Assembly (NCBI GenBank): GCA_036261915.1
Contig: DATAJX010000005.1
Coordinates: 8,689-72,688, forward strand
Origin: Alphaproteobacteria bacterium
GTDB taxonomy: Bacteria; Pseudomonadota; Alphaproteobacteria; UBA2136; UBA6156
Direction: 5' to 3'
DNA: 64,000 nucleotides
The first letter of the stretch is position 1; each line of letters opens with the position of its first letter. Of the stretch, positions 1,702 to 48,830 are shown piece by piece. The notes below the pieces were generated by a model. It was not told where the DNA came from. It did not search any database and worked only from the letters and a program-made list of their open reading frames with translations. Made by a program: the position numbers and the translations under genes.

Positions 1702-1825
1702 GGCCTCTTTTTCCGGATTCATAACCCTTTATACACTCTTTACGAACGAAGCGCCCTTCCCCACCGCAAACTTACACCGAAGCGGCTAGAATTTCCCGGT
1801 TACATGAACAAAGGAGAATACGGCC

Positions 1826-5930: not shown

Positions 5931-6011
5931 TTACCCCCAGAGGAGCCAGCCGATGCCGAGGCCGATAAGGACCCCATACAAAGCCATGAGGGCGAGGCCG
6001 ACTGCGTTCAT
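5931..6011 (-). CDS. possible 26-aa hydrophobic micro-protein
   Basis: ATG at 6011-6009 preceded by GGAAGGAGAA. Encodes MNAVGLALMALYGVLIGLGIGWLLWG then TAA. Below the ORF-track length cut-off. Confidence 0.35.
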   Translation of the reverse strand: MNAVGLALMALYGVLIGLGIGWLLWG

Positions 6012-6248
6012 ATTTGTTCTCCTTCCCATACAAAACGGCCCCCTGAAAATCAGAGAGCCGGGAAGCTAATAACCGTTACGAGAACGGCGCAGCGTATTGA
6101 CGCTTGCGCGCTGTTTTATTCCGCCGCCTTCCCAGCATATGGAAAGCGACAGTTTGGTGACGGCTGATGTCGCAGCCGCTCGTATTTGGGGTTATTAGGT
6201 CCCGGGCGCTTTTGCGCTTGGGGTTACATTAGCAAAATTTTGGGGCTG

Positions 6249-7235: not shown

Positions 7236-7240
7236 TCGCT

Positions 7241-7338
7241 GGCGGGTGACGATTTTTCATTTTATCCGACGACCGAGCAGCGCAAGCGTACACTTTGGTA
7301 CGTGCGCAGCGCAGGGCTAGGAAAAATGAAAAAGCGGC
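7241..7338 (+). repeat. Family-B ~98-bp MITE-like palindromic repeat, copy 1
   Basis: ggcgggtgacgatttttcattttatccgacgaccgagcagcgcaagcgtacac...gcgcagggctaggaaaaatgaaaaagcggcc. Ends are inverted (tttttcatttt / aaaaatgaaaaa). Alignable along its length with 53512-53609. Confidence 0.7.
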
Positions 7339-7354
7339 CGCGCCAGTAGAGTGG

Positions 7355-24640: not shown

Positions 24641-24699
24641 CGGTTCTCTTGTTATTTGAGTGACGTTGTACCATACAGCCGTCACAGGAGAAAAACACC

Positions 24700-30912: not shown

Positions 30913-31467
30913 ATGAAAAAGACAATAACCGCCGCCCTGCTGCTGGCTACGCTGGCCGGTTGCGCCCCGCCCCCGCCGCCCACGCCCCTGCCCTACCGCT
31001 TTGTGCTGGCCGATATTACCGACGGGCGCTTGACCCCCGAACAGGGCGGCACCGACCCGCTTTACGACATGTACCCGTTCGATACGCAGGCCATCGCCAT
31101 GTCGTTCAGCAACAACCTGGTGGCCCCGGTGTTCGGCGCGCGCGAGGCCAAGCTGCACCTGAAGGTGACCCACTACCAGGCCACCACCAGCGACGGCAGC
31201 TGGGCCGTCAGCATCGCCATGGAAGGCTACGCGCAGGACGACAGCGCCAGGCCGCGCACCATCGGCATCTTCAACGCCACCTGCAACCGGGTGGAGCGCG
31301 AAGGCTTTGCGCTTGATGCTTTTGCAACCGACAGCTGGCAGCAAAAATCGCTGAAGCCGTTGACGCCCGACGGCCGCAATACAAGAATGTTCGGCATTGC
31401 GCTTAACAACTGCACCCGCGACCTGGCCCGCCAGTTTGGCGCCAGCCTTGCGGCAAAAGGAGATTAA
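30913..31467 (+). CDS. lipoprotein, hypothetical
   Basis: MKKTITAALLLATLAGC lipobox. Confidence 0.7.
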   Translation: MKKTITAALLLATLAGCAPPPPPTPLPYRFVLADITDGRLTPEQGGTDPLYDMYPFDTQAIAMSFSNNLVAPVFGAREAKLHLKVTHYQATTSDGSWAVSIAMEGYAQDDSARPRTIGIFNATCNRVEREGFALDAFATDSWQQKSLKPLTPDGRNTRMFGIALNNCTRDLARQFGASLAAKGD

Positions 31468-31468
31468 A

Positions 31469-32197
31469 ATGGCTTTACGTCAAAATGTGTTGATGGCCGT
31501 GGCTGCCGCCATACTGCTGGGCGGTTGCGGCGCCAGCCGCTACGACGAATACCCCCCTTACGAAGGCGCCGGGTTTGAAGAACGCGGCACCACCCAAAAG
31601 GAACGCCTGATCGCCCGCAGCGACTTCAGCGTTGAGCTGGTGCGGCTGACCGACAACCGCAACCCGCGCACCGAAGCCAGTGACCCCGGCGACAACAAAA
31701 TCTACCAGTACGAACCCGACGTGCTGATGCAGGGCGTGAGCACCCGCCTGCCCGTGCTGTTCAACAAATACCTGGCCTACCGCCCGCGCATGGCCAAGCA
31801 CTACAAAACCGAGATCGAGATCACCCGCTTTAAAACGCAGATCCTCAACGGCACGCTGCTGAGCGGCGAGTTCGGCCGCTACGCGGTAGACCTTGAAGCC
31901 CGCGTGATCGCCCGCCGCAGCGACAGCACCGTGGCCATCAACCGCCCGTACAGCATCGTCATCGAGCAGCGCCGCAAAACCTACAACGGCCGCAGCCCCA
32001 GCGTTGAAATGGACCGCACCCGCATGTACGACCTGGCCGAAGACGCCGTGCGCCAGATGAGCCAGGAGATCGGCTGGGACCTGCGCCGCGCCGACGCGCA
32101 CGTATGGACGCCCGAAGTGGTGAGCGGCACCATTCCACCCGCAGAGTTTACGGTGCCCAGCCCCACCACCCCGCCGGTCATTGACTGGCAAGGCTAA
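31469..32197 (+). CDS. lipoprotein, hypothetical
   Basis: Met25 of ORF 31397..32197 after AAGGAG. Lipobox AAILLGGC. Starts 1 nt after the previous stop. Confidence 0.7.
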   Translation: MALRQNVLMAVAAAILLGGCGASRYDEYPPYEGAGFEERGTTQKERLIARSDFSVELVRLTDNRNPRTEASDPGDNKIYQYEPDVLMQGVSTRLPVLFNKYLAYRPRMAKHYKTEIEITRFKTQILNGTLLSGEFGRYAVDLEARVIARRSDSTVAINRPYSIVIEQRRKTYNGRSPSVEMDRTRMYDLAEDAVRQMSQEIGWDLRRADAHVWTPEVVSGTIPPAEFTVPSPTTPPVIDWQG

Positions 32198-32222
32198 AAA
32201 ACCGCCCAAGGGCGGTTTTTTT
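32196..32222. terminator. bidirectional rho-independent terminator
   Basis: aaaaaaccgccc-aa-gggcggttttttt. Confidence 0.8.
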
Positions 32223-32781
32223 ACATGGCGGCGCGGCGCTCGCTGAAGTCGGTAAGAATTTGATAGGCTACATTAATGCGCTTGATATGCTCGGCAGCCT
32301 CGGGCGTTTTGTTGACGTCCGGGTGGTTCTTTTTCACCAGGTTAAGGTAGCGCGGCTTCAGTTCGGCGCCCGGCAGCGGCTCGGGGATGCTGAAAATGGC
32401 GCAGGCCTCCTTCACGTCGGCGGGCAGGCCAATGGTGCTGGGCAGCGGCTCTTCGGCTTTTTTCTGGCCGCGCTTTTCGGCCTTGATGCGCTGCTGGAAA
32501 AACCCGAACAGGTCTTGCGCGGTGGCAAAGGGCTGGGTTTCGACCCGCGCGCCGCTGGCGCCGTTCAGGCCTTCCATCCACACCGGGCGCTGCCATACGG
32601 CACTGCCGCTTTGGATGCCCCAGAGCTCTGACTGGTCGAAGCCTTTCAACCCGTCCCAGCTCTTGTTGAATTCCTTGATATGCGGCTGGCAGAAATACTG
32701 GCGCTCACGCAAATTGCGCGGGCTTTTGGGGGCGGGGAAAGTCCCCTCCGCCGTACAACCGGGCCAGTTACATTTGTGCAT
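32221..32781 (-). CDS. J-domain protein with Cys-rich N-terminus (C-terminal J domain)
   Basis: Met62 of ORF 32221..32964: MHKCNWPGCTAEG...YFCQPHIKEFNKSW, with C-terminal LVKKNHPDVN (HPD). Its start overlaps the peptidase stop (TAATG). Confidence 0.7.
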   Translation of the reverse strand: MHKCNWPGCTAEGTFPAPKSPRNLRERQYFCQPHIKEFNKSWDGLKGFDQSELWGIQSGSAVWQRPVWMEGLNGASGARVETQPFATAQDLFGFFQQRIKAEKRGQKKAEEPLPSTIGLPADVKEACAIFSIPEPLPGAELKPRYLNLVKKNHPDVNKTPEAAEHIKRINVAYQILTDFSERRAAM

Positions 32782-33398
32782 TACAGGGCAAACATGGGAC
32801 GCAACAGGCCTTCCGGCAAGTGGGGGAAGGCAATTATTAATGCCCAGCCCACCAGGAGCGGGGCGCCAAAAGGCTGCGGGGTTTTGGGCCGCCAGAACGC
32901 CAGCGGCAACCACAAAAAGCAGCCAATGGCCACCGCAAACGCGGCGGCATTGAGAGGCAACCACGCCAATAATGCGGCCAGCAGTTTAAAATCGCCCCCG
33001 CCCAAACCACGGGTGATGGGGAAGCGCGGCGCCAGCGGGGCCAGCACCAGCAAGGCCATGGCCAAACCCACCTGCGCGAACTGCTGTTCCAGCGCGGCGG
33101 CGGCCAGCCCCACCGCCAGCAGCGGCAGGGTGTAGATGTCGGGCAGCGTATAGGTGGTTAAATCGAGCGCCAGCATGCGAGCAAACACCATGGCAGTGGC
33201 CAGCGCCGCCAGCGGCGGCAGGGCAAGCGCCAGCGGCGCCAACAGCAGCAGCGCAAACAGCGCGGTGAACGCCGGGTGGCGGTTCACCGGCAGCCAGCCG
33301 GGCAGCCACAGGTCGCGGGCCTTGAGGGTGGCTTTTTCCCACGGCAGCAGGGTTTTATGGGCAGCGACGGTGGCGGCGACGATGGCTTTGTTCTTCAT
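32781..33398 (-). CDS. A24-family prepilin peptidase (no methyltransferase domain)
   Basis: Polytopic membrane protein with the two catalytic Asp contexts DLTTYTLPD and GGGDFKLLAAL. Confidence 0.8.
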   Translation of the reverse strand: MKNKAIVAATVAAHKTLLPWEKATLKARDLWLPGWLPVNRHPAFTALFALLLLAPLALALPPLAALATAMVFARMLALDLTTYTLPDIYTLPLLAVGLAAAALEQQFAQVGLAMALLVLAPLAPRFPITRGLGGGDFKLLAALLAWLPLNAAAFAVAIGCFLWLPLAFWRPKTPQPFGAPLLVGWALIIAFPHLPEGLLRPMFAL

Positions 33399-33452
33399 GC
33401 GGTAACGATAGCCCTTTACAGGCCCAGCGTCATCCCCTGCCCGGGGCGCGGG

Positions 33453-34355
33453 TTATTTGGTGAAGCAGTTCTCGCCGTACGAAAAGCAGATGCTGGCCGA
33501 AAACGGCGGGTCGGCACGGCCGGTGACGTTGCTGTGGTATTGCAGCAGGCGGCCCCAGGGGTCGTGCGCGTAGGTTTCGGGCAGGCCCAGGTCGGTGATG
33601 AGCTGCTTCATGTCGTTCTCGTCGCCGCTGTTGTAGGCTGCCCTGTTGAGCACGCGCGTGGCGTAATACACCACCTCGTTGCTTTTATCGGCGCTGCTGG
33701 GCGGGTAAAAATTGAATTGCGTGAAGTTTTTGTTGTCGGTGTTGGTGCACCATTCGGGCGGCTTGGTACCCGAGCAGGTGCCCTGGGCTTCAATGTACGC
33801 GCTGTTCTCGGCGGTCTGCAGTTTGTCGATGATCAGCTGCGCGCGGGCACGGTAGTCTTCCAGCCGGGCCATTTCAATGTCGCGCGTGCTCACCTTGCTG
33901 CCCACGTCGTCGTTCAGGGGTTCCCACTGGGCGTAGTCGTTGTCTGACATCAGGCTGGGGCTGTTGGCCACGCCGTCCTTCCCGGCGCTGTACACCACGG
34001 CGTAGTGCACGGTCACGGGGTTGCCTTCCAGCGATACCGCCGATGAAAAACGCTCGTAATACCAAGGGTTGCCCCAGGGGTCTTTTTTCACGCCCGGGTC
34101 GTTCATCACACCGCTTTTCATCAGGGTGTCGATACTGTCGGGCAGTTGGTTGATGCCGATGGTCTGGTAGTATTTCAAAATACCTTCGCGCAGGGTCTGG
34201 GCACCCTGCTCGGCCTGCTCCACCTTGCTGCGCTCCAGCCGGCTCATGATGGTGATGCCCCCGGCGGCGGTCAGAATGGCCGCCACGATCAACGCAATGC
34301 GGGCGTCCATGCCGAACATGGCGCCGCGTTGGCTCAGGCGAGTGAACAAACCCAT
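33453..34355 (-). CDS. GspG-like (pseudo)pilin with a long C-terminal extension
   Basis: N-terminal hydrophobic helix ARIALIVAAILTAAGGITIM after QRGAMFG. GspG-type signature KKDPWGNPWYY...VVYSAGKDG. Confidence 0.7.
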   Translation of the reverse strand: MGLFTRLSQRGAMFGMDARIALIVAAILTAAGGITIMSRLERSKVEQAEQGAQTLREGILKYYQTIGINQLPDSIDTLMKSGVMNDPGVKKDPWGNPWYYERFSSAVSLEGNPVTVHYAVVYSAGKDGVANSPSLMSDNDYAQWEPLNDDVGSKVSTRDIEMARLEDYRARAQLIIDKLQTAENSAYIEAQGTCSGTKPPEWCTNTDNKNFTQFNFYPPSSADKSNEVVYYATRVLNRAAYNSGDENDMKQLITDLGLPETYAHDPWGRLLQYHSNVTGRADPPFSASICFSYGENCFTK

Positions 34356-34356
34356 T

Positions 34357-35145
34357 CTATTTTTTTTCTTCCGTGCCGCTTATGGCGTTGTCGGTTACTG
34401 TGGCCTGGCTGTTGTCGCGCAGGTTCAGCTTTTGAGTATAAGTGTAATTCCATGGCGTGGTAAACTGCAGTGCCGCATTTTCGCCATCGGTAAATATATA
34501 GTCGAACTTCTGCCCCCAGGCATCATGGAAGTCGAATTTACCGGCCAGCTCGGTGTACTCGCTGCCGCTGGGGAAGCGCATGTGCCCGGCATAAAACGCA
34601 TAAACCTGCTCGGCCATCCCTTCCAGCCCGCTTATGCTGTTCTTCATCTGCCGGGTGCGGATGGCCGAGGTATCGAACGTGACCACCGTGCCGCTTTGCG
34701 CCGCCAGCCTGTTCAATTCGGCTGCGCTGGCCGCGCGGTACACCTGCGAGCGCTTCAGAATATCGTCCGACGTCGTCACTCCCACGCGCTGGTTGCCGGC
34801 GCCAAAACTGCCTTTGGCGTCAACATCCTGCACGTTCACCAGCACGCGCTCACCGCCGCGGGTTTTGCCGGTGGCCAGGCTGGTGTATTGCATGGCGCGT
34901 TTCAGATCGAGGTCTTCGCGGTAGGTGCCGTTGGTTTCGGTGAGTAACGAAAACTCCATGGCGTGCGCCAGGTCTTCGGCCTGCGCCTTTTCCTGTGCGG
35001 CGCGCAGGGCGTTCTGGCGGGCCATTTCCTGCTTGGCCCATTGCATGCTCAGCACCGAAAACACGCTCATGCCCATGATGAGCCCGAACATGAAAGGGGA
35101 GAGTGCTCCCCTTTGATTACATGGCGAACGGGATTGCGAGGTCAT
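34357..35145 (-). CDS. pilin-like protein (atypical)
   Basis: The N-terminus QRGALSPFMFGLIMGMSVFSVLSMQW resembles the neighbouring pseudopilin leader. The stop lies 1 nt before the next start. Confidence 0.55.
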   Translation of the reverse strand: MTSQSRSPCNQRGALSPFMFGLIMGMSVFSVLSMQWAKQEMARQNALRAAQEKAQAEDLAHAMEFSLLTETNGTYREDLDLKRAMQYTSLATGKTRGGERVLVNVQDVDAKGSFGAGNQRVGVTTSDDILKRSQVYRAASAAELNRLAAQSGTVVTFDTSAIRTRQMKNSISGLEGMAEQVYAFYAGHMRFPSGSEYTELAGKFDFHDAWGQKFDYIFTDGENAALQFTTPWNYTYTQKLNLRDNSQATVTDNAISGTEEKK

Positions 35146-35995
35146 AGGTCACGCCGTTGAATTCGAGGGTGACTTTGCGCGACTGGATGGCCCGCACCGT
35201 GACCGGCAGCGTGAATGTGCGCTGGTACTGCCCTGGGTTGGTTTTGCGCTGGGCGGCCAGCGTGGCCACGGTCTGCTCGTACACGTCAAAGTACGCCTGC
35301 GCCTGCTCTTTGGTGACCGTGCCTTCGGCGGGCAACTGGTCTTCCAGCACCGCGATCAGCTCGGGGTCGGAGGGCGCGATGGTAACGGTGGCCTTGATCT
35401 GGTCGCCCACCGCATAGGTGGTGCCATTGATGATGGCGCGGCGCTCGGGCGAGGTCATCACCCCGTTCAGCGCCAGCCCGCGCAGCAGGTAGCTCAATTC
35501 AAACGTGCGCAGGTCAGGGTGCCAGTTCTGCATGTATTCGGCCAGCCGTTGCGCCATGCCGCTGCGGAACTCGCGCAGGTCGAGGCTTTCGGGCACGTTC
35601 AGCGCGGGCAGCGTGCTGCTGGTCAGGGGCTCGCCCGAAGGGCCGTACTGCACGTTGCCGCCGTCATCGGCGGTGCCGCTTACCGTGGTGCCGCTGGGGC
35701 CCACCGCCACCTGGGTCAGCCGCAGGGGGTCCAGCGGCACGTCTTCCAGCAGGTCAGAAAGCACGGGCACGGCCAGCGGCTTGCCCTTGTTCTGCTTGGC
35801 GCTGTCCTCGATCACCTCGCTGCGCGAAAATTCAAAGTCGGGCTGGCCCGCAAACGTGCGCGGCCAGTTCAGGCGGCTGCCACTTGCCGCCGGCGTGGGG
35901 GCCTGGTTAAGCACTTGCGCGTCGGCACCCGCCGCCAGCAGCAGCGCCGCCACAAACATGATGGCCTTAATAAAGCGTGCTGGGGTCATATACAT
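35117..35995 (-). CDS. secreted protein of unknown function in the filament operon
   Basis: Met31 of ORF 35117..36085. Signal peptide ARFIKAIMFVAALLLAAGADA. Overlaps both neighbouring genes. Confidence 0.6.
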   Translation of the reverse strand: MYMTPARFIKAIMFVAALLLAAGADAQVLNQAPTPAASGSRLNWPRTFAGQPDFEFSRSEVIEDSAKQNKGKPLAVPVLSDLLEDVPLDPLRLTQVAVGPSGTTVSGTADDGGNVQYGPSGEPLTSSTLPALNVPESLDLREFRSGMAQRLAEYMQNWHPDLRTFELSYLLRGLALNGVMTSPERRAIINGTTYAVGDQIKATVTIAPSDPELIAVLEDQLPAEGTVTKEQAQAYFDVYEQTVATLAAQRKTNPGQYQRTFTLPVTVRAIQSRKVTLEFNGVTYDLAIPFAM

Positions 35996-36467
35996 ACAGG
36001 TAGCCTTCGATTTGGACCATGCGCTGGTCGGAGGGCGTGCCCTTGGGCGCAAGGCCGCAGGCATAGCAAAAACGGTAGGGCACAAAACCGGGCAGCGTCA
36101 CCAGGCGGCGCATCAGCTCCTGGCTTTTGGCAAAGGTGCTGGGCCCCACGATGCGGAAGGTGTGGCGGTACAGCGTGCGGGTGCCGCCGGTGATGCGCGG
36201 CTGGCCCACAAAGCGCCACTCCATGCCGGGCGCGCCGATGTCGAGCAGGCGTTCGATGGTGAACTTCTGGTCGTCGCCGCTGGCCATGCTTTGCGCGCGC
36301 ACCTTTTTGATGCGCAGGTTCAGGTCCAGCCCTTCCTCGCGTTTGGCCACGGCGTCTTCGAGGCCTGCTTTTTTGGCCTGATACTGGCTGGCCTGGTCGA
36401 ACCACTGCCACGTGCCGATGATCAGCGTCAGCACCATCAAGGCCAAGCCGGCGGCAAAGCGTATCAT
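35967..36467 (-). CDS. PilO/GspM-like bitopic assembly protein
   Basis: N-terminal TM FAAGLALMVLTLIIGTW followed by a coiled-coil-like segment. ATGA overlap with the upstream gene. Assignment is by topology only. Confidence 0.5.
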   Translation of the reverse strand: MIRFAAGLALMVLTLIIGTWQWFDQASQYQAKKAGLEDAVAKREEGLDLNLRIKKVRAQSMASGDDQKFTIERLLDIGAPGMEWRFVGQPRITGGTRTLYRHTFRIVGPSTFAKSQELMRRLVTLPGFVPYRFCYACGLAPKGTPSDQRMVQIEGYLYVYDPSTLY

Positions 36468-37873
36468 TGGGCGCCTCCTTCGCTGCGGTCGGGGCTGGCG
36501 GTGCCGGTTTTGCCCGCGGGTTTATCGGTGGTGGTGGCGGGCAAGCTGGCGGCATCGGGTGCCGGGGTGGTGCGCCCAACGGCGGCCTTGCCCGGTTGCC
36601 TGGCGGCAATCTTCTGGTAATCGCGCCAGGCGGCGTTCAGCGGAATAAGCCCTTCCAGCTTGTACAAGGCGCTGGGCTGCTTGCGCACGGCGGCCACCAG
36701 CGCGCTGTTCAGCACAAAACCTTTTGCGGCAGGTTCTTCCTGCAGCCAACCGTTGTAGGCGTCGCGCTTGGCTTCCAGCGTTACCAGCAACTGCTCGGGC
36801 GGGGTGTCGGCGTCGGTGTTCTTCACCTCAAAACTTTCGGCCTTGAAGTTGCTCAGCTCGATAGCGCGGCTGGTGTCCTTCACCGCCAGGTAAAACAGTT
36901 CGCGCTTTTGCATCATGCGTTCCTGCTCGGTCACCACGCGCTCAAGGTCGGCAAACTTGCCGCCGCGGGGTATCTGCTGTTCCACCACGCGCAGCTGTTC
37001 GTTCATGTCGTCGATGCGGCGGCCGTTCAGGGTCAAAATCCCCCACGCGGTGGCCACCATCATCAGGCCCAGCACCATAATAAGCGTGCCGTACTGTTCC
37101 TGGAAGGTGGGGCGGTTAAGCCAGGTGTTGGGGTCCAGCGGCAGCTCGCGCAGGCCGCGCACGGTAATGCGGTCGTTGGCCTGCAGCAGGTCGGTTTCCC
37201 AGGCGGTATAAACATTGGCGCGGGTGGTGCGCGGGTAGCTTTTCAGCACGCTGTCAAGGTCGCGTACCCAGGTGGCGGCGGCGGTGGGCAGCACGTAGTT
37301 GTCCTTCACGTCCCAATGGAACAGCACGTCGGCGGCGATGAGGATGTTAATGGTGTTGGGCGTGGCGGGCGCCATGCGGCACAGGTCGATCAGCGGCAGC
37401 GCGCCCAGTTGCTGCGCGGCCATGGCCTGCATGTTGGCGTCGGCAACTTCGTCGCCGCTGCCGGCGATCTCGCCGGTCAAGAACAGGTAGGGGTCCACCG
37501 GGCGGCCGTCGGTGCCGCGCGGGGCAAAAAACATCAGGGCCATGCCGCGGCGCAGGCTTTCGTCAACCAGCTCCTGCCAGCTGTCGGCAAACACCGGGGT
37601 CTTTTCGCCGCCCAGCAAAAGTTCGCTGCGGTTAAGGCCCACCACGCACAGGCTGCGGAACACATCGCCCACCTGCCCCAGCCGGCGCACCTGCACCAGG
37701 TGGCCAAAACGGTCCTTGAACATACCGATGAACGGCTGGGCCTTTTTGATGTATGGGCGCACCTCGTCCATCATCGGGCGCAGGCTGTCGCGCACGGTAA
37801 AGTAATGCTCCTTCACCTGCGGCGGTATCTTGTCGGTGACCGGTTTCAGCAACTGGGCGAGTTGTTCGTTCAT
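36464..37873 (-). CDS. GspL-like or fused PilM-PilN-like bitopic assembly protein
   Basis: Met23 of ORF 36464..37939. ~285-aa cytoplasmic part, central TM YGTLIMVLGLMMVATAWGILTL, coiled coil, and P/T/A-rich tail. Assignment is by topology and context. Confidence 0.5.
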   Translation of the reverse strand: MNEQLAQLLKPVTDKIPPQVKEHYFTVRDSLRPMMDEVRPYIKKAQPFIGMFKDRFGHLVQVRRLGQVGDVFRSLCVVGLNRSELLLGGEKTPVFADSWQELVDESLRRGMALMFFAPRGTDGRPVDPYLFLTGEIAGSGDEVADANMQAMAAQQLGALPLIDLCRMAPATPNTINILIAADVLFHWDVKDNYVLPTAAATWVRDLDSVLKSYPRTTRANVYTAWETDLLQANDRITVRGLRELPLDPNTWLNRPTFQEQYGTLIMVLGLMMVATAWGILTLNGRRIDDMNEQLRVVEQQIPRGGKFADLERVVTEQERMMQKRELFYLAVKDTSRAIELSNFKAESFEVKNTDADTPPEQLLVTLEAKRDAYNGWLQEEPAAKGFVLNSALVAAVRKQPSALYKLEGLIPLNAAWRDYQKIAARQPGKAAVGRTTPAPDAASLPATTTDKPAGKTGTASPDRSEGGAQ

Positions 37874-37875
37874 GG

Positions 37876-38982
37876 CTAGGCCTGGCTCATCACGATCGAA
37901 AGCATGTCCAGCATCATCACCGCGCCGCCCAGCACCCACAGTATGCTCGAGAACACCGCAATGAACTTGCTGTGGGTATCCACCAGAATGCGCTCGAGGA
38001 TATTGTGCGCGTGGTTCATCCCCTCGATCAGCACGTCGTTCACGTTGCCGTCGGTGGGCGCGTAGTGTTCGGCCACGCTCACCGGCGTCACGATCAGTTC
38101 GGGGAAGCCCGCGCGCGTCATCGCCTCGGCCAGCGTGCCACCGGTGGTGATGACGTGGTTGAACGCATCGATCTTGCGCTTGAGCACCGTGTTGGTGGTC
38201 AGCGCTTCCATAATGGGAATGAGCTGCTTGGGCTTCACCCCGCTGGCAATAAGGTAGGGGAAGTACAGCAGCATCTGGTTATAGGTGTGGTACGTCAGGT
38301 AGCGGCCGTAAATGGGCATGGCCAGCTTCATCTTATCGAGCGTGCCCCTGCCCTGCGGGCTGCCGTACAACGTAAAAATGACAATGCCGAACACCACCAG
38401 CACCGCCACGAACAGGTACCAGTAATGGGCGCAAAACTGCGTGGTGTACATAATACCGCCGGGCAGCAGGCCAATGGGCTTGCCCTGCGATTCCTGCAAC
38501 TTCACCATCACCGGCAAGGTGTTCAACCCGGTGTTGAAAATACTCACGCAGCTCAGCACCAGCATCAGCAGCGGGGTGAGCATTTCGCTCATGCCCGCGC
38601 GCGAGCTGGCAATGGCCTTGTCTTCGAGCACGCGCAGCACTTCAAAACTTTTTTGCATGTTGTTGCTGGCCTCGCCGGCCAGAATGGCGGCGCGGTGCAC
38701 GTCCGAAAACATCTGGCGCTCACCCAGCATGCTCTGGCTGAGCGACTTACCCTGCGAAACCTTCTGCGCAATGCCCATCAACGCGCTGGCAATGCCTTCC
38801 TGCTTTTCCGAGCGGAAGGCCTTGGCCACGCTGCGCAGGCTGTCGGCGGTGGTCTGGCCGGTCTTCATCATCATGGCCATGAAAAAGAACAGGCGCTCGC
38901 GGTCGCGCGGGCTGATGGTGGCACGACCACCGCTGCCGCCGAAGCTGGCCATCATGTTACCGGTGGCGGCAGGGGCGGCCAT
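37876..38982 (-). CDS. type II secretion / type IV pilus platform protein (GspF/PilC family)
   Basis: Three-TM architecture with a duplicated T2SSF-like segment (SLSQSMLGERQMFSDVHRAAILAGEASNNMQKSFEVL). A 1-nt overlap with the ATPase stop. Confidence 0.8.
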   Translation of the reverse strand: MAAPAATGNMMASFGGSGGRATISPRDRERLFFFMAMMMKTGQTTADSLRSVAKAFRSEKQEGIASALMGIAQKVSQGKSLSQSMLGERQMFSDVHRAAILAGEASNNMQKSFEVLRVLEDKAIASSRAGMSEMLTPLLMLVLSCVSIFNTGLNTLPVMVKLQESQGKPIGLLPGGIMYTTQFCAHYWYLFVAVLVVFGIVIFTLYGSPQGRGTLDKMKLAMPIYGRYLTYHTYNQMLLYFPYLIASGVKPKQLIPIMEALTTNTVLKRKIDAFNHVITTGGTLAEAMTRAGFPELIVTPVSVAEHYAPTDGNVNDVLIEGMNHAHNILERILVDTHSKFIAVFSSILWVLGGAVMMLDMLSIVMSQA

Positions 38983-40682
38983 CAGCGCAGCACTTCCAGT
39001 TCGGCGCTGAACAGGTTTTCAAGTTCGTCGATGGAGGTGATGCCGTTCTTCACGTGCCGCAGCCCGTTGGTGAGCATGTCTTTTTGCCCGGCGGCGCGGG
39101 CCTGTTCGCGCATCACATCCAGCCAATCGGGGCGCAGGCGGCTGCCCGCCCACACGTTGCGGGAAATCTCGCGGCGCCACATTTCCAGAATTTCCTCCAT
39201 GGCAATACGCCCGGTGTAGCCGCGGTAGTGGCACAGCTCGCAGCCGTTGCGGTTGGGGCGGTAAATGGTGTCGCCCTGCTTCCAGCCCAGCGGGCGGATC
39301 TTTTCCAGCTGGCCGATGGTTTCGGCATCAAGCTCGTGCGGCACCTTGCACTTGGGGCACAGGCGGCGCACCAGGCGCTGCGAAATGACGCCGCGCAGGT
39401 TGGAAAAGATCAGTTCGGGCGGCACACCGCGCTGCAGCAGGCGGTCCAGCGTCATAAAGCTATCATTCGCGTGCATGGTGGTAATAACAAGGTGGCCCAG
39501 GTTACCGGCGTCGATGACGCGGCGAGTGTCTTCGGGGCTACGCACTTCGCCGATGAACAGCACGTCCGGGTCCAAACCCAGCGCGGCGTACATGAAGCTT
39601 TCCAGGTTCACACCGGCGCTCAGGTCCTCCTCGGTCTGAATGACGTTGCCCATGCGCTCTTCGATCTGCTTTTCATACGCGATCACGTTCTGGCCGGGGC
39701 GCTGGCCGCGGCGGATCATCAACCGGCAGGCGGTACTTTTACCGCTACCGGTGGGCCCGGCAAAAATGATGACGCCTTCTTCAAAGCGCATCAGCTGGTC
39801 GATCTTATCAATGCTCTCGTCGGTGTAACCGAAGGTATCCATGCTGCCTTCAAACGGACGCAAAAAGCGCATGGCGATCTTGGCGGTGTTCTCCAGCGTG
39901 ATGGGCTGCGTGGTGTAACGGATATCGACGCTCTGGCGGTTGGTCAGCTCGAACGTCATCCGGCCGTACAGCGGCTTTTTAAAGTTTTCGGCGCTCACGC
40001 CGGCCATGTGGCGCAGGCGGCCGATCACGCGGTCGTACACTTCGCTGGGCAGCGCCACCAGTTCTTCCAGCTCGTTGTCGATACGCGCCATCACCGTGGG
40101 CTTGCGGTTCAGAATTTCGACGTGCAAGTCGCTCGCGCCGTTCTTGTACGCAGTACGGATGATCTCATCGACCAGGTTGATGATGGCGTCGTCGTTCCCG
40201 GCATTGATCTGCGCATAGGCGTTTTCGACCAGAAACTTCAGGCTGTGACCTTCGCGCTTGTTCATCCGCTCCAGCGCGGTTTCGATGCTTTTGGGGCTGG
40301 CCCACACAAAGTGATGGCTGTTCTTGCGGTTGCGCAGCAAAATTTCGGAGTGCAGGCGCTTGTTGGGCAGGTCGGCACTGGCCCACAACACCTGGCCACG
40401 GCCCAGCTCGATGGGGCACGCGGTGTGGAAATGCATGAATTCGCGGTCGATACCCTCCACCTGGTGGGGGGTCACCTTGGCCATCTCTTCGTCGTTCTTC
40501 ACCGGGTATTCGTAGGCAATGGCCTTGTAGCGGCCCTGCTGGGTGGCCGAAAGCTTGCCCGCCTTGCCCAGCGCCTCGATGAGCGCATCGGCATCCTTTT
40601 GCACCACTACAGGCAGGTTATGCAGGTCGGAGATGCCGATCACGTGATCGGCAATCATCAAATCGACAATATCCATAGCCAT
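38982..40682 (-). CDS. GspE/PilB-family type IV filament assembly ATPase
   Basis: Walker A FAGPTGSGKSTAC, Walker B DPDVLFIGEVR, His box LVITTMHAN, and tetracysteine CPKC...CELC. Confidence 0.9.
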   Translation of the reverse strand: MAMDIVDLMIADHVIGISDLHNLPVVVQKDADALIEALGKAGKLSATQQGRYKAIAYEYPVKNDEEMAKVTPHQVEGIDREFMHFHTACPIELGRGQVLWASADLPNKRLHSEILLRNRKNSHHFVWASPKSIETALERMNKREGHSLKFLVENAYAQINAGNDDAIINLVDEIIRTAYKNGASDLHVEILNRKPTVMARIDNELEELVALPSEVYDRVIGRLRHMAGVSAENFKKPLYGRMTFELTNRQSVDIRYTTQPITLENTAKIAMRFLRPFEGSMDTFGYTDESIDKIDQLMRFEEGVIIFAGPTGSGKSTACRLMIRRGQRPGQNVIAYEKQIEERMGNVIQTEEDLSAGVNLESFMYAALGLDPDVLFIGEVRSPEDTRRVIDAGNLGHLVITTMHANDSFMTLDRLLQRGVPPELIFSNLRGVISQRLVRRLCPKCKVPHELDAETIGQLEKIRPLGWKQGDTIYRPNRNGCELCHYRGYTGRIAMEEILEMWRREISRNVWAGSRLRPDWLDVMREQARAAGQKDMLTNGLRHVKNGITSIDELENLFSAELEVLR

Positions 40683-40794
40683 AAGTGCGTAATTTCTCCT
40701 GCGGCAGCTTACCTAAAAGCGCGCGGATTATCAGGGGTTATACTGAATACACAGCAATTACGGCACAGCATGTGTGGCCGAAAAGACAGGGGCT

Positions 40795-40823
40795 GAAAAA
40801 ACCGCCCCGGAAGGGGCGGTTTA
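40795..40823 (-). terminator. rho-independent terminator after tRNA-Asp
   Basis: Minus strand reads aaaccgcccc-ttcc-ggggcggtttttt. Confidence 0.7.
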
Positions 40824-40828
40824 ATTTC

Positions 40829-40988: not shown

Positions 40989-41063
40989 GGGCGATTAGCT
41001 CAGCGGTAGAGCGTCTCCTTTACACGGAGAGGGTCGGGAGTTCAATCCTCTCATCGCCCACCA
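40989..41063 (+). tRNA. tRNA-Val (TAC)
   Basis: gggcgattagctcagcggtagagcgtctcctttTACacggagagggtcgggagttcaatcctctcatcgcccacca. All four stems pair, and CCA is encoded. Confidence 0.9.
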
Positions 41064-41107
41064 TAGATTTTCCCACACCCAGCAAAATTAAAGGCCCTGC
41101 GGGCCTT

Positions 41108-41178
41108 CTTTACACGGAGCGCTTATGCAGCGCGCCTTTGGCGCGACGTCGGGAGTTCAATCCCCTCATCGCCCACCA
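41108..41178 (+). pseudogene. partial duplicate of the tRNA-Val 3' half, interrupted by a 28-nt family-A hairpin unit
   Basis: ctttacacggag + [cgCTTATGCAGcgcgcctttggcgcgac] + gtcgggagttcaatcccctcatcgcccacca. The 5' half is missing and the T stem has one mismatch. Confidence 0.8.
41120..41147 (+). repeat. Family-A repeat, short copy (hairpin end only)
   Basis: cgCTTATGCAGcgcgcctttggcgcgac, near-identical to the 3' end of copy 2 at 10559-10586. Confidence 0.7.
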
Positions 41179-41180
41179 TA

Positions 41181-41265
41181 AATCGCACCGCAGGTGCGTT
41201 TCATAAGCGCAGGGCCGGGCAAACCCAAAGGCCGCAGGCCGGGGCACCGCAACAGGCTTCTTTTT
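41181..41265 (-). repeat. Family-A dispersed repeat, copy 5
   Basis: Minus strand reads gaagcctgttgcggtgccccggcctgcggcctttgggtttgcccggccctgcgCTTATGAAAcgcacctgcggtgcgat. Confidence 0.65.
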
Positions 41266-41339
41266 TTCCTCCCTTGCCTTCCCCCGCCGCTTCGACTAAA
41301 TATCTGATATCGTTGACGCACCAGAGCGAGGTTTCCCCC

Positions 41340-41777
41340 ATGACCATCACCCGTATCCACGTTTCGCGCGTGCTTGTGCAGTCGCCCGGCCCCGGTTTTT
41401 TAAACCCCAGCCAGCTGGCCGGGCTCAAACGTGCCCTCCGGCAGCTTTTCCCGTCGCTGGAGCGGCAGGTCGATAAAGCCATCGACACCATCAGCCCCAC
41501 CACTGCCGACCTTAAAAACGCGCTGGTGGCCCTGGTGGTGCCCAGCGGCAATGCCCTGAAGGGCGGCCGCTTCAACACCGGCCCCATCGAAGCCGCGGGC
41601 GGCCTGCCGGTGGCGGTGCTGTTCACCTGCGAGCGGCCCGAAAAACGCGCCCTTTCGCTGATGTACGGCAACTGCCGCTATTACTACGAAGAACACTGCT
41701 ACGACGGCCGCTGGCACCCCAACAGCAACCAGCCCCCGGCCCACAACAGGTGCTGGCCCGAGGTTTATGCCGCCTGA
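41340..41777 (+). CDS. hypothetical protein (Cys/aromatic-rich C-terminus)
   Basis: Met23 of ORF 41274..41777 after GAGG. C-terminus reads NCRYYYEEHCYDGRWHPN...NRCWPEVY. Confidence 0.55.
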   Translation: MTITRIHVSRVLVQSPGPGFLNPSQLAGLKRALRQLFPSLERQVDKAIDTISPTTADLKNALVALVVPSGNALKGGRFNTGPIEAAGGLPVAVLFTCERPEKRALSLMYGNCRYYYEEHCYDGRWHPNSNQPPAHNRCWPEVYAA

Positions 41778-41784
41778 ACATACG

Positions 41785-41812
41785 AAAAAGCCCGCAGCGA
41801 TGCGGGCTTTTT
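41785..41812. terminator. bidirectional rho-independent terminator
   Basis: aaaaagcccgca-gcga-tgcgggcttttt. Confidence 0.8.
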
Positions 41813-42179
41813 ATTTTGGTTCGGGGTTCAGTTCACGCTCGGTGGCCTTGATGTCGGCGGGCTTGAGGCCGGCTTTTTCAAGGTGATAACGCACCTGCCT
41901 GGCATGACGCACCAGCTTGTACAGGGCGCTGCCGTCGGGCAGCTTGCGCAATGCCTCCAGCCAACTCAACGCGGCATTGTAGTGGCCAAGCTGGTCCAGC
42001 TTGCGCACTTCAAAGTCGCTGGTGCCCAGCCTTTCCAGCGTAATGCCGTGCGGCTTGCACATGCGCTCCAGCTGGTCGGCCAGGTCGGTCACGCCCTGGT
42101 CGTTGTGGCGGGCCACCTTCAGGCGGTCCAGCGCACCCTGCAGGGCGCGCTGGGCCTCGCGGCTCAGTTCCTTACTCAT
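41811..42179 (-). CDS. hypothetical helical protein, tandem paralogue A
   Basis: Met52 of ORF 41811..42332 after GAGG. Shares ..QL..MC....TL..L.T...EVRKLD and YHL..AGL.P..I.AT.REL with paralogue B. Confidence 0.6.
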   Translation of the reverse strand: MSKELSREAQRALQGALDRLKVARHNDQGVTDLADQLERMCKPHGITLERLGTSDFEVRKLDQLGHYNAALSWLEALRKLPDGSALYKLVRHARQVRYHLEKAGLKPADIKATERELNPEPK

Positions 42180-42254
42180 GTAAAACCTCATGGGGTCAGA
42201 TGCTTCGGCAATGTACTTAAAGTATACATAACCCGTAAAACGCCTATGGCCAAC

Positions 42255-42281
42255 AAAAAACCCCGCCGAAGCGGGGTTTTT
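42255..42281. terminator. bidirectional rho-independent terminator
   Basis: aaaaaaccccgc-cgaa-gcggggttttt. Confidence 0.8.
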
Positions 42282-42282
42282 C

Positions 42283-42648
42283 TTAGTCGTCGGGCGGCAA
42301 TTGCAGTTCGCGCCGGGTGGCGCCAATGGCATTGGGCTCCAGCCCGGCCCGTTGCAGGTGGTACAGCGTCATGCGCACGCACAAATCGCGTGAAGTGGCC
42401 GGGGCCGGGCGGCGCAAGCCTTCCAGCCCAAAGGCGGCGGCATGGCGGTTGCCTTCCCTATCCAGCTTGCGCACCTCATCTTCGCCGGTGCGCAGCTGTT
42501 GCAGCGTAAAATTGTAAGTGCTGCACATGCCCTTCAGCTGTTCGGCCAAACCGGGCACGCCGTAATGCTCACGGGCGGCGGCCAGCCAGCCCAGGGCATC
42601 GGCAAAGGCCTGGCGGCGTTTCTTTTCGTATTCCTCGAGAGTGTTCAT
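42283..42648 (-). CDS. hypothetical helical protein, tandem paralogue B
   Basis: Met35 of ORF 42283..42750. Alignable with 41811..42179. Confidence 0.6.
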   Translation of the reverse strand: MNTLEEYEKKRRQAFADALGWLAAAREHYGVPGLAEQLKGMCSTYNFTLQQLRTGEDEVRKLDREGNRHAAAFGLEGLRRPAPATSRDLCVRMTLYHLQRAGLEPNAIGATRRELQLPPDD

Positions 42649-42711
42649 GAGAAAACCTTGGGTAAGATGGGCCAGATATACGTGCATACCCCGCCCCTGC
42701 CCCGCCGGGCA

Positions 42712-42735
42712 ACAAAAAAGCCCGCCAATGGCGGG
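42712..42735 (-). terminator. rho-independent terminator after hupB
   Basis: Minus strand reads gcccgcc-attg-gcgggc followed by tttttt. Confidence 0.7.
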
Positions 42736-42754
42736 CCCTTGTAACCGCAAAAGA

Positions 42755-46216: not shown

Positions 46217-46488
46217 TCGGGTCGGTTTTCCTTTTCTTTTACTCAACACGCCCGGGGCGTGATGACGAAGGCACCTTAGCACTCAATAGCAATGAGTGAC
46301 AAGAACTTTCGATACTCACCAGTACTCTTATTCAACAAAGGCATGATGCTCGCCCCAAACCCCCTAAAGCAAGGCATGTGCCACCGCGTTGGGCGGGTGG
46401 GGATAAAACCCTGCTTATTCCCCGGGCCGGTGTGACACAAAAACGAACGCTTACCTAAAAACAAGGCACAGCCTGCCTTTTTAAAAAG

Positions 46489-47340: not shown

Positions 47341-48830
<1,490 letters not shown>

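What the first reader, a model, noticed from the sequence alone, without database searches (positions are those of the whole stretch)
32221..40682. Compact, secretin-less type IV filament / T2SS-like operon with divergent non-ATPase parts
Nine minus-strand genes are packed with 1-29-nt overlaps or 1-2-nt gaps; the only larger gap is 54 nt. In order they are:
- a GspE/PilB ATPase (Walker A/B, His box, CPKC...CELC)
- a GspF/PilC platform protein
- a 469-aa bitopic protein with GspL or fused PilM-PilN topology
- a 166-aa PilO/GspM-like protein
- a ~290-aa signal-peptide protein with no recognisable motif
- two pilin-like proteins, one with the GspG signature KDPWGNPWYY plus a ~150-aa C-terminal extension
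- an A24 prepilin peptidase
- a J-domain protein

Neither the operon nor its flanks contain a secretin (GspD/PilQ), a PilT-like retraction ATPase, a GspC/PilP homologue I can recognise, minor pseudopilins GspH-K, or a candidate substrate or adhesin. This gene set does not match the canonical layouts of T2SS, T4aP, T4bP, Tad, MSH or Com systems in a diderm. It may be an undescribed minimal member of the type IV filament superfamily.
Basis: partly seen in the sequence, partly recalled or inferred. Interest (0 to 1): 0.7.

Follow-up and report, generated by a model that had tools for sequence, protein, structure and literature searches.

The report
Divergent lineage-specific type IV filament operon
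This is a real, tightly packed operon for a pilus- or secretion-type nanomachine, found only in one uncultured group of proteobacteria; most of its parts are too divergent for sequence searches to name, and no outer-membrane pore gene lies next to it.

Summary
Nine co-oriented, translationally coupled genes lie at 32221-40682 (-).

**What the genes are**
- Pfam identifies a GspE/PilB-type ATPase, a GspF platform, an A24 prepilin peptidase and a J-domain protein.
- The 469-aa protein has no sequence relatives outside its own family: 27 hits among 1.84 billion representatives. Its AlphaFold model (pLDDT 88) matches GspL best.
- The 292-aa "motif-less" protein carries a GspC-HR/GspB-like domain.
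- The 300-aa protein aligns to GspG across the QRG| cleavage site, with Asp+6 where Glu+5 is expected.
- The 262-aa protein shares the same leader sequence.
- The 166-aa protein remains unassigned.

**Conservation**
- The layout recurs in about 40 loci, all from uncultured MAGs labelled Alphaproteobacteria, Magnetococcales or MarineProteo1.
- The ATPase is 67-93% identical within this group and at most 31% identical to anything on plasmids or in E. coli.

**Secretin**
- No secretin, PilT or GspH-K gene lies in the window or within ±10 kb of any locus.
- The HR-type domain is the kind that binds secretins, so an unlinked secretin is more likely than none. I could not scan whole genomes.

**Verdict:** a new, clade-restricted variant of the T2SS/T4P branch, a "generic" TFF in MacSyFinder terms. 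It is not shown to be secretin-independent.

The parts
38982..40682 (-). Assembly ATPase of the GspE/PilB type, 566 aa. It has Walker A, a CPKC...CELC tetracysteine motif, and a weak T2SSE_N/MshEN domain at residues 70-145.
   Evidence: Pfam T2SSE 1.5e-68 and MshEN 5.6e-4. NCBIfam GspE scores 241 bits and PilB 235 bits, against cut-offs of 630 and 676; the PilB model aligns over the full length, residues 6-556. PDB matches: PilB 7e-52, about equal to GspE 9e-52. It is 30% identical to E. coli GspE, at most 31% to any plasmid-borne homologue, and 67-93% identical within the clade.
37876..38982 (-). GspF/PilC-type polytopic inner-membrane platform protein, 368 aa.
   Evidence: Pfam T2SSF 5.5e-14 with two stretches. 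NCBIfam GspF 1.7e-28 (100 bits, cut-off 424) against PilC 1.8e-18. BLASTP does not detect it against E. coli GspF.
36464..37873 (-). GspL-like bitopic protein, 469 aa. From the model: a cytoplasmic actin-like domain, a long helix at residues 257-300 that contains the hydrophobic membrane-spanning stretch, a coiled coil, and a periplasmic alpha/beta domain. The N-terminal ~65 residues and the C-terminal tail are not conserved.
   Evidence: No Pfam, NCBIfam or PDB-sequence hit. AlphaFold2 pLDDT 87.8. Top Foldseek hits are GspL cytoplasmic domains: 4pht_Y (probability 0.98, E 1.4e-3), PulL 5tkw and EpsL 1w97/1yf5. Also PilO 3jc8_Oa and the PulL periplasmic domain 5hl8_C. An exhaustive HMM search found only 27 representatives, all from the same family.
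35967..36467 (-). 166-aa bitopic protein with an N-terminal TM helix, a helical stretch and a C-terminal domain with an invariant CxxC. It is a candidate GspM/PilO-type partner of the GspL-like protein, but this is unproven.
   Evidence: Conserved in all loci long enough to show it, at 30-81% identity. No Pfam signal in any of 15 members, no PDB profile hit, and no hhalign match to E. coli GspM. The assignment rests on size, topology and position only.
35117..35995 (-). 292-aa periplasmic protein. It has a Sec signal peptide (…AGADA|Q), a conserved WPRTFxGQPDFxF motif, a variable disordered linker, and a C-terminal GspC-HR/GspB/PilP-type beta domain (about residues 175-290) interrupted by a helical insertion.
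   Evidence: Pfam T2SSB 4.1e-5, below cut-off, but it recurs in 17 of 24 family members. AlphaFold2 gives pLDDT of about 90 for the C-terminal domain. Foldseek probability is 0.98 to GspB 4wfw and to GspC-HR 3oss_C (TM 0.75 over the target); the E-values are weak at 0.2-0.6.
34357..35145 (-). 262-aa pilin-like protein. Leader …NQRG|ALSPFMFG…, no acidic residue near +5, and a C-terminal DAWGxxFxY motif.
   Evidence: Its N-terminus is homologous to the 300-aa pilin family (hhalign 87%, E 3.7e-6). No Pfam or PDB hit. Conserved in all loci.
33453..34355 (-). 300-aa GspG-like pseudopilin. Leader …SQRG|AMFGMDARIAL. The N-terminal GspG-like module (about residues 1-148) contains KDPWGNPWYY. A C-terminal extension of about 150 aa carries a second DPWG motif.
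   Evidence: hhalign against E. coli GspG: 77%, E 2.1e-5, 120 columns covering GspG residues 5-139. The two QRG| cleavage sites align, and Asp+6 aligns with GspG Glu+5. Pfam T2SSG 1e-3, below cut-off. Invariant G11, A12, F14, D17, A18, R19.
32781..33398 (-). Short A24 prepilin peptidase, 205 aa. It has the GGGDFKLL and LPD aspartate motifs and no N-terminal Cys-rich methyltransferase region.
   Evidence: Pfam Peptidase_A24 1.6e-11 at residues 71-166 and no other domain. The motif is visible in the sequence. It is absent from the locus in L004, L005 and L027.
32221..32781 (-). 186-aa J-domain protein. It has an N-terminal C-x4-C…C-x2-H zinc-finger-like region and a C-terminal J domain with HPD. 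Its start overlaps the peptidase stop by 1 nt.
   Evidence: Pfam DnaJ 4.4e-11 at residues 131-183. It sits immediately after the peptidase in almost every locus that has the peptidase, at 39-82% identity.
40683..40828 (-). Upstream intergenic region. It contains the terminator-like hairpin of tRNA-Asp (about 40797-40824), then about 115 nt with an AGGAG ribosome-binding site before the ATPase ATG. This is the presumed promoter region.
   Evidence: Read from the sequence and the tRNA calls. The consensus scan found no sigma-70-like promoter here, so the promoter is inferred, not shown.

Best explanation
This is a lineage-specific, highly divergent type IV filament (TFF) machine of the T2SS/T4aP branch.

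**Proposed mechanism**
1. The two atypical prepilins (262 and 300 aa) are inserted into the inner membrane.
2. The short A24 peptidase cuts them after the Gly of Q-x-G|A. They are probably not N-methylated, because the peptidase lacks the methyltransferase region.
3. The hexameric GspE/PilB-type ATPase docks on the GspF platform. The cytoplasmic actin-like domain of the GspL-like protein holds it there. The periplasmic domain of the GspL-like protein pairs with the 166-aa protein.
4. ATP hydrolysis polymerises the pilins into a short filament, a pseudopilus.
5. The soluble periplasmic HR-domain protein links this platform to an outer-membrane secretin encoded elsewhere in the genome. Periplasmic cargo is pushed through that secretin, as in a T2SS.
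6. The co-transcribed J-domain protein recruits DnaK to some cytoplasmic step, such as ATPase or platform assembly or prepilin handling.

**Shown here**
- Family identity of the ATPase, platform, peptidase and J domain.
- GspL-like and HR-like folds.
- GspG-like homology and the shared leader of the pilins.
- Operon conservation.

**Inferred**
- The interactions between components.
- The cleavage site.
- The lack of N-methylation.
- The existence of the unlinked secretin.
- Secretion as the output.
- The role of the J-protein.
For: - Pfam and NCBIfam identify the core parts.
- The platform scores higher with the GspF model than with PilC: 100 against 67 bits.
- GspL fold: pLDDT 87.8, and the top Foldseek hits are GspL, PulL and EpsL cytoplasmic domains.
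- The ATPase has a weak T2SSE_N domain at residues 70-145, the domain type that binds GspL in T2SS.
- HR/GspB-type domain in the 292-aa protein.
- The 300-aa protein aligns with E. coli GspG over 120 columns, including the QRG| site. The 262-aa protein shares that leader.
- No PilT is present. The nearby extra ATPase is VirB11-like.
- The operon is under strong selection. The same order appears in about 40 loci, the ATPase is 67-93% identical, and the ORFs are intact and overlapping.
- The flanks are housekeeping genes, so this is not a mobile island.
Against: - No secretin was found in the window or within ±10 kb of 40 loci. The secretin partner is pure inference.
- There are no GspH-K minor pseudopilins and no identified substrate.
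- Every NCBIfam equivalog score is far below cut-off.
- The ATPase is collinear with PilB over its full length rather than with GspE, and it is equidistant from both in the PDB.
- Marine relatives carry a normal-sized pilin (about 170 aa) just upstream of the ATPase. That looks more like a pilus system.
- The HR-domain protein has a cleavable signal peptide and no membrane anchor, unlike GspC or PilP.
- Foldseek E-values for the HR domain are weak, at 0.2-0.6.
- The 166-aa protein is unassigned.
Confidence: 0.5

Rival explanations
1. It is a surface type IV pilus for adhesion, DNA uptake or contact with prey or host, not a secretion pseudopilus. The major pilin would be the small ~170-aa QxGA-leader pilin. 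That pilin sits upstream of the ATPase in marine relatives and would be encoded elsewhere in this genome. The 262-aa and 300-aa proteins would be minor or tip pilins. An unlinked secretin would still be needed.
For: The ATPase matches the full-length PilB model at residues 6-556 and M. xanthus PilB at residues 6-554. A small pilin with the same leader lies directly upstream of the ATPase in L013, L015-L022, L028, L034, L035, L038 and L039. The two pilins in the operon are large and multi-domain, as tip or minor pilins often are. A ComF-like gene is present in the window at 991-1722.
Against: There is no PilT/PilU. The PilM-PilN functions are fused in a GspL-type protein. The platform is closer to the GspF model than to PilC. 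The pilins carry the GspG-type DPWG signature and the GspG alignment. No small pilin was found in the window or in the freshwater-subclade loci.
Confidence: 0.3
2. It is a truly secretin-independent, minimal TFF in a diderm. The filament would stay in the periplasm as an 'endopilus', or use a non-secretin outer-membrane partner contacted by the HR-like protein. This would make it a new functional class.
For: No secretin is linked in any of about 40 loci, even though the other genes are tightly clustered. The HR-like protein is soluble and atypical, with a helical insertion. The accessory proteins form families with no relatives outside the clade.
Against: HR/PilP/GspB domains are known as secretin-N0 binders (PMC9239104, PMC8134430). 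Secretin and peptidase genes are often unlinked in TFF systems (PMC6668835). Whole genomes could not be scanned here.
Confidence: 0.15
3. It is a decaying relic of a T2SS or T4P that has lost its secretin and minor pilins and no longer functions.
For: Canonical components are missing, and sequence similarity to reference systems is very low.
Against: All nine ORFs are intact with coding-type GC3. They are translationally coupled. They are conserved in order across about 40 loci from at least 27 species-level genomes, with the ATPase at 67-93% identity and invariant motifs in every accessory protein.
Confidence: 0.02

Closest known systems
Type II secretion system (Gsp/Eps/Pul/Out)
   Same: GspE-type ATPase with a tetracysteine motif. 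GspF platform. GspL-type fused actin-like plus periplasmic protein. HR (GspC/GspB)-type periplasmic domain. GspG-type pseudopilin signature (QRG| leader, DPWGxxY). A24 peptidase. No retraction ATPase.
   Different: No linked secretin. No GspH-K. No PDZ domain or membrane anchor on the HR protein. The pilins lack Glu+5 (Asp+6 instead) and are 262-300 aa. The peptidase is short. The gene order is E-F-L-(M?)-C'-pilins-O-J rather than C-D-E-F-G-H-I-J-K-L-M-O. All NCBIfam scores are 2.6-fold or more below the equivalog cut-offs. A J-domain gene is co-transcribed.
Type IVa pilus (PilB/PilC/PilMNOPQ/PilT)
   Same: The ATPase has PilB length and is collinear with PilB. The platform is present. There is a PilP-like HR domain and an actin-like cytoplasmic component.
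   Different: No PilT/PilU. No PilQ at the locus. PilM and PilN are fused rather than separate. No canonical Phe1/Glu5 pilin.
'Generic' or atypical TFF systems, for example the Chlamydiae T2SS-like system (Denise et al. 2019, PMC6668835)
   Same: It has the ATPase, platform and pilin core but fails the specific MacSyFinder-type definitions. Its accessory parts are divergent or missing.
   Different: The Chlamydial system lacks GspL/M but keeps a secretin. This one keeps a GspL-like protein and lacks a linked secretin.
Tad/Flp pilus
   Same: A short prepilin peptidase without the methyltransferase region, as in TadV/CpaA, and G|A-type cleavage.
   Different: The ATPase is not TadA/CpaF-type: the NCBIfam TadA-family match is 7.5e-6 against GspE 1.6e-71. 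There is one GspF-type platform rather than TadB/TadC. The pilins are large rather than ~50-80-aa Flp.
Mitochondrial T2SS-derived system (miT2SS; Horváthová et al. 2021, PMC8134430)
   Same: A reduced T2SS-like gene set, in a lineage discussed in connection with mitochondrial origins.
   Different: Mitochondrial GspE scores higher with E. coli GspE (69-97 bits) than with this ATPase (56-60 bits). miT2SS keeps a secretin and Glu+5 pilins and lacks GspL and GspO, which is the opposite pattern.

Membership tests
T2SS | Outer-membrane secretin GspD (PF00263) | tested here: not met
   Absent from the window (Pfam on every plausible ORF of 400 aa or more; phmmer with GspD and HofQ) and from ±10 kb of 40 related loci. 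Genome-wide presence could not be tested with these tools.
T2SS | GspE ATPase | tested here: inconclusive
   Pfam T2SSE 1.5e-68. TIGR02533 scores 241 bits against a cut-off of 630 and is not better than PilB at 235 bits. The PDB matches are equidistant.
T2SS | GspF platform | tested here: inconclusive
   Pfam T2SSF 5.5e-14, above the gathering score. TIGR02120 scores 100 bits against a cut-off of 424, but it is the best-scoring model.
T2SS | GspG major pseudopilin with a class III signal peptide and Glu+5 | tested here: inconclusive
   Pfam T2SSG 1e-3, below cut-off. hhalign to E. coli GspG: 77%, E 2e-5. The leader QRG| is conserved, but Glu+5 is replaced by Asp+6.
T2SS | Minor pseudopilins GspH, I, J, K | tested here: not met
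   No phmmer hits with E. coli GspH-K in the window or loci. Only two pilin-like genes are present in the window.
T2SS | GspL (cytoplasmic actin-like domain + TM + periplasmic domain) | tested here: inconclusive
   Fold-level match to GspL, PulL and EpsL. No sequence-level match by Pfam, NCBIfam, PDB profile or hhalign to E. coli GspL.
T2SS | GspM | tested here: inconclusive
   The 166-aa protein has the right size, topology and position, but no detectable similarity.
T2SS | GspC (TM anchor + HR domain + PDZ or coiled coil) | tested here: inconclusive
   An HR-type domain is present. The protein has a cleavable signal peptide and no PDZ domain.
T2SS / T4P | A24 prepilin peptidase | tested here: met
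   Pfam Peptidase_A24 1.6e-11, above cut-off, and the GGGDFKLL motif. The methyltransferase region is absent.
T4aP | Retraction ATPase PilT/PilU | tested here: not met
   None in the window. The only other T2SSE-superfamily ATPase (23714-24685) is VirB11-like at 3.8e-60, against pilT_fam at 4.1e-11. None in the loci flanks.
T4aP | Separate PilM, PilN, PilO and PilP plus the secretin PilQ | tested here: not met
   The PilM-like and PilN-like parts are fused in one protein. No HofM/N/O/P/Q hits.
Tad | TadA/CpaF-type ATPase, TadB/TadC platform pair, small Flp pilin | tested here: not met
   The NCBIfam TadA-family match is 7.5e-6 against GspE 1.6e-71. There is a single T2SSF protein with two repeats. 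The pilins are 262 and 300 aa.
MSH pilus | MshE ATPase clade and the mshI-Q gene set with the MshL secretin | not tested
   No MSH reference set was available. The gene order and the absence of a linked secretin do not resemble msh. The MshEN/T2SSE_N hit is weak at 5.6e-4.
miT2SS donor lineage | ATPase specifically closer to mitochondrial GspE than are ordinary bacterial GspE | tested here: not met
   Three mitochondrial GspE sequences score 69-97 bits with E. coli GspE and 56-60 bits with the window ATPase.

The most novel reading that the evidence does not exclude
The machine works without any secretin. It would be a self-contained, clade-defining type IV filament of a deep-branching, uncultured proteobacterial lineage (MarineProteo1 and its freshwater relatives). 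It would build a periplasmic filament, or one that exits through a non-secretin channel, from non-methylated pilins that lack Glu5. Its soluble HR-like adaptor and its dedicated J-domain co-chaperone would have no counterpart in known TFF systems.
Probability: 0.15. Interest if true: 0.8.

Novelty: new variant of a known kind. Interest (0 to 1): 0.45.

Why it matters
If the reading holds, it adds a distinct, clade-restricted branch to the type IV filament superfamily. Only the motor, platform and peptidase are recognisable by sequence. The GspL-like, HR-like and pilin parts have diverged beyond HMM reach.

The branch combines traits usually found in different systems:
- a PilB-length ATPase;
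- a GspL-type fusion;
- GspG-type pilins without Glu5;
- a Tad-like short peptidase.

This is useful for tracing how T2SS and T4P accessory proteins evolved, and for improving TXSScan-type models.

It also marks a conserved envelope machine in a lineage known only from metagenomes and cited in the debate on mitochondrial origins. I found no special link to the mitochondrial T2SS.

If a genome-wide search showed no secretin, the finding would become much more important.

Tried and rejected
**Searches that found nothing**
- Profile-against-PDB sequence searches for the 469-, 166-, 292-, 262- and 300-aa families returned only noise.
- hhalign of the family profiles against single E. coli sequences found nothing for GspL, GspM, GspC or GspB, or for the 262-aa family against GspG.
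- BLASTP of all nine proteins against E. coli Gsp and Hof proteins detected only the ATPase.
- A local hhalign batch timed out.
- A Pfam scan of all 15 members of the 166-aa family gave no recurrent family.
- Literature searches for MAG names and for a description of this system found nothing relevant. MarineProteo1 papers discuss phylogeny and respiration, not secretion.

**Ideas tested and rejected**
- Mitochondrial T2SS affinity: rejected.
- The VirB11-like ATPase at 23714-24685 as a possible retraction ATPase: rejected. It is VirB11-type and is not syntenic with the operon in other loci.
- The two lipoprotein genes at 30913-32197 as possible pilotin or outer-membrane partners. They are conserved next to the operon only in the freshwater subclade, on the opposite strand, with no family match. 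I left this open.

**Attempts that added little**
- Extending the contig beyond the window with the look-up of encoding contigs gave only about 2.5 kb of extra housekeeping genes.
- Cluster look-ups of distant GspL-like family members gave no taxon names.
- A genome-wide secretin search was not possible.

Full report
**1. Observation**

Their third-position GC is 0.71-0.86, as expected for genes in this 62% GC window.

The junctions are as described. There are overlaps of 1, 4, 29, 29 and 1 nt, gaps of 2 and 1 nt, and one 54-nt gap before the peptidase gene.

Upstream of the ATPase gene lie tRNA-Asp, a terminator-like hairpin, and about 115 nt ending in an AGGAG ribosome-binding site. The operon therefore probably has its own promoter there. 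The sigma-70 consensus scan found nothing convincing.

**2. Recognisable parts**

Pfam identifies four of the nine proteins above its gathering scores:
- T2SSE, 1.5e-68
- T2SSF, 5.5e-14, two repeats
- Peptidase_A24, 1.6e-11
- DnaJ, 4.4e-11

NCBIfam places the ATPase equally near GspE (241 bits) and PilB (235 bits). The platform is nearest GspF (100 bits, against 67 for PilC). Every score is far below the equivalog cut-offs of 424-850.

Against solved structures, the ATPase is equidistant from M. xanthus PilB (7e-52) and V. cholerae EpsE (9e-52). It is 30% identical to E. coli GspE and at most 31% identical to any homologue on 72,556 plasmids.

The PilB model aligns over the whole protein, residues 6-556. 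A weak T2SSE_N/MshEN match covers residues 70-145.

The peptidase is short at 205 aa. It has the GGGDFKLL catalytic motif but no second Pfam domain. Its first 70 residues contain no Cys pairs. I infer that it does not N-methylate its substrates.

**3. The parts with no name**

*The 469-aa protein.* It has no Pfam, NCBIfam or PDB-sequence match, even as an 18-sequence profile. A word-indexed search found 82 relatives, all 'hypothetical'. An exhaustive HMM search of 1.84 billion representative proteins found only 27, all from the same family.

Its AlphaFold2 model is confident (pLDDT 87.8). From N to C it shows:
- an alpha/beta cytoplasmic domain;
- a long helix at residues 257-300, which contains the hydrophobic membrane-spanning stretch;
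- a coiled coil;
- a small alpha/beta periplasmic domain.

The best Foldseek hits in the PDB are the cytoplasmic domains of GspL (4pht_Y, probability 0.98), PulL (5tkw) and EpsL (1w97, 1yf5). Lower hits include PilO and the PulL periplasmic domain, as well as generic actin-fold proteins. The E-values are modest, about 1e-3. The consistency of the hits makes 'GspL-like' the best reading.

*The 292-aa protein.* It has a Sec-type signal peptide, a conserved WPRTFxGQPDFxF motif, a variable linker and a conserved C-terminal region.
- The weak Pfam T2SSB match (4e-5) recurs in 17 of 24 family members.
- The C-terminal domain is modelled at a pLDDT of about 90.
- The only Foldseek hits with high probability (0.98) are Dickeya GspB (4wfw) and the GspC HR domain bound to GspD (3oss_C, TM 0.75 over the target). 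PulC-HR also appears lower down.

So the 'motif-less' protein carries an HR/PilP-type domain with a helical insertion. In known systems this domain contacts the secretin N0 domain (PMC8134430, PMC9239104).

*The 300-aa protein.* Its family aligns with E. coli GspG over 120 columns (hhalign 77%, E 2e-5). The alignment superposes QRG|AMFGMDARI on QRG|FTLLEIM. The cleavage site is therefore conserved, but Asp+6 stands where Glu+5 is expected. A second DPWG motif lies in the 150-aa C-terminal extension.

*The 262-aa protein.* It shares the QxGA leader and N-terminal helix (hhalign 87%) and has its own DAWGxxFxY motif.

*The 166-aa protein.* It has a TM helix, a helical stretch and a domain with an invariant CxxC. 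Nothing I ran links it to GspM or PilO. That label rests on size, topology and position only.

**4. Conservation and distribution**

A scan of one genome per GTDB species with the ATPase returned 29 loci. All are MAGs labelled Alphaproteobacteria, Proteobacteria, Magnetococcales or MarineProteo1, plus a few obvious mislabels. ATPase identity is 67-93%.

The seven genes from the ATPase to the 300-aa pilin are in the same order in every locus long enough to show it. The peptidase and J-domain pair follows in most loci. In L004, L005 and L027 that pair is missing from the locus; in L004, housekeeping genes follow instead.

Eleven more metagenome loci show the same layout.

The accessory proteins are only 22-60% identical across the clade but keep invariant motifs. 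The operon is therefore under purifying selection and is not a relic.

The marine subclade, including MarineProteo1_Bin2, has a tenth gene. It encodes a ~170-aa pilin with the same QxGA[LM]FG[LM]DARI leader, just upstream of the ATPase. This pilin is absent from the window and from the freshwater-subclade loci.

**5. What is not there**

The window's other genes are housekeeping: prfA, prmC, hisS, lon, clpX, clpP, gatA, gatB, nusG, yidC, a 16S rRNA gene and others.

- No plausible ORF of 400 aa or more is a secretin.
- phmmer with E. coli GspD, HofQ, GspC, GspH-M and HofM-P against all six-frame ORFs of the window and 40 loci found only the ATPase, platform and peptidase.
- No canonical G|FTLIE prepilin exists anywhere in this sequence set.
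- The flanks of a marine locus are also housekeeping.

The absence of a linked secretin, PilT and GspH-K is therefore solid.

Absence from the genome is untested. The tools gave me no way to scan whole MAGs. Unlinked secretin and peptidase genes are common in TFF systems (PMC6668835).

**6. Interpretation**

The gene set is best read as a divergent member of the T2SS/T4aP branch of the type IV filament superfamily, with a mosaic of traits:
- a PilB-length ATPase;
- a GspF-like platform;
- a GspL-type fusion;
- an HR-domain adaptor;
- GspG-type pilins lacking Glu5;
- a Tad-like short peptidase;
- a co-transcribed J-domain protein.

I favour a T2SS-like pseudopilus that works with an unlinked secretin (confidence about 0.5). 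The reasons are the GspL fusion, the GspG signature, the HR domain, the GspF preference and the lack of PilT.

The rivals are:
- A surface pilus, at about 0.3. The PilB collinearity and the small upstream pilin in marine relatives favour it.
- A truly secretin-independent machine, at about 0.15. This remains possible and would be the interesting outcome.
- A dead relic, which the conservation excludes.

A special relationship with the mitochondrial T2SS was tested and not found. Mitochondrial GspE proteins resemble E. coli GspE more than they resemble this ATPase.

**7. Novelty and score**

I found no description of this system. Its accessory proteins form families with no detectable relatives.

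However, TFF clusters that fail the canonical definitions are common. Denise et al. 2019 left 884 of 9,026 systems as 'generic'. The core machinery here is clearly of a known kind.

I rate it a new variant of a known kind, interest 0.45. It is worth a genome-wide secretin check and a proper ATPase and platform phylogeny. It is not yet evidence for a new class of machine.

Noticed in passing
window 47341-48829 (-): A complete 16S rRNA gene stands alone. No 23S, 5S or spacer tRNA genes appear anywhere in the 64-kb window. The lon gene (43694-46282) follows about 1 kb downstream, so the rRNA genes appear to be unlinked.
   Followed up: partly
window 23714-24685 (-): An orphan VirB11-like ATPase of 323 aa (NCBIfam VirB11 3.8e-60, below cut-off). 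It lies between a Nudix hydrolase gene and a methyltransferase gene, with no other type IV secretion genes nearby. It is not syntenic with the operon in other loci.
   Followed up: partly
window 41033-41068 and 41148-41183; ORFs 41274-42750: The 3' end of tRNA-Val is repeated 115 nt downstream (36 nt, 94% identical). Three small ORFs without Pfam matches follow. Two of them (41811-42332 and 42283-42750) are paralogues at 36% identity, E 1e-21. This may be the remnant of an element that integrated at the tRNA.
   Followed up: partly
L013, L015-L022, L028, L034, L035, L038, L039 (about 150-800 nt upstream of the ATPase gene): The marine subclade carries an extra pilin gene of about 170-200 aa, with the same QxGA[LM]FG[LM]DARI leader and a GW(S/N)GPY motif. 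L021 has two copies, plus a third large pilin after the 300-aa one. This pilin is absent from the window.
   Followed up: yes
L004, L005, L027 (downstream of the 300-aa pilin gene): In this sub-subclade the A24 peptidase and J-domain gene pair is not at the locus. In L004, citrate synthase and other housekeeping genes follow instead. The peptidase and J-domain pair therefore behaves as a separable module.
   Followed up: partly
window 30913-31467 (+) and 31397-32197 (+): Two adjacent lipoprotein genes (lipobox Cys, no family match) converge on the end of the operon. They keep this position in the freshwater-subclade loci L001, L002, L009 and L025. Any link to the machine is untested.
   Followed up: partly
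window 6001-7300: A low-GC patch: 0.486 in the 6001-8000 bin against about 0.62 elsewhere. It contains a 328-aa ORF (6249-7235, -) with no Pfam match, next to clpX.
   Followed up: no
window 4625-5836 (-): A second ORF with a weak J-domain match: 403 aa, DnaJ 1.6e-4, below cut-off, very high GC3 of 0.88. In the marine locus L018, a TerB plus DnaJ protein lies about 1.6 kb upstream of the operon ATPase gene.
   Followed up: no
window 991-1722 (-): A ComF-like protein with phosphoribosyltransferase and double zinc ribbon domains. This family is linked to DNA uptake in competent bacteria. It is weakly relevant to the idea that the filament serves as a competence pilus.
   Followed up: no
window 36464-37873 (-), residues 1-61 of the product: The freshwater subclade has an N-terminal extension of about 60 residues on the GspL-like protein, predicted as a long helix at high confidence. 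It is absent from the marine subclade, whose proteins are 363-390 aa.
   Followed up: no
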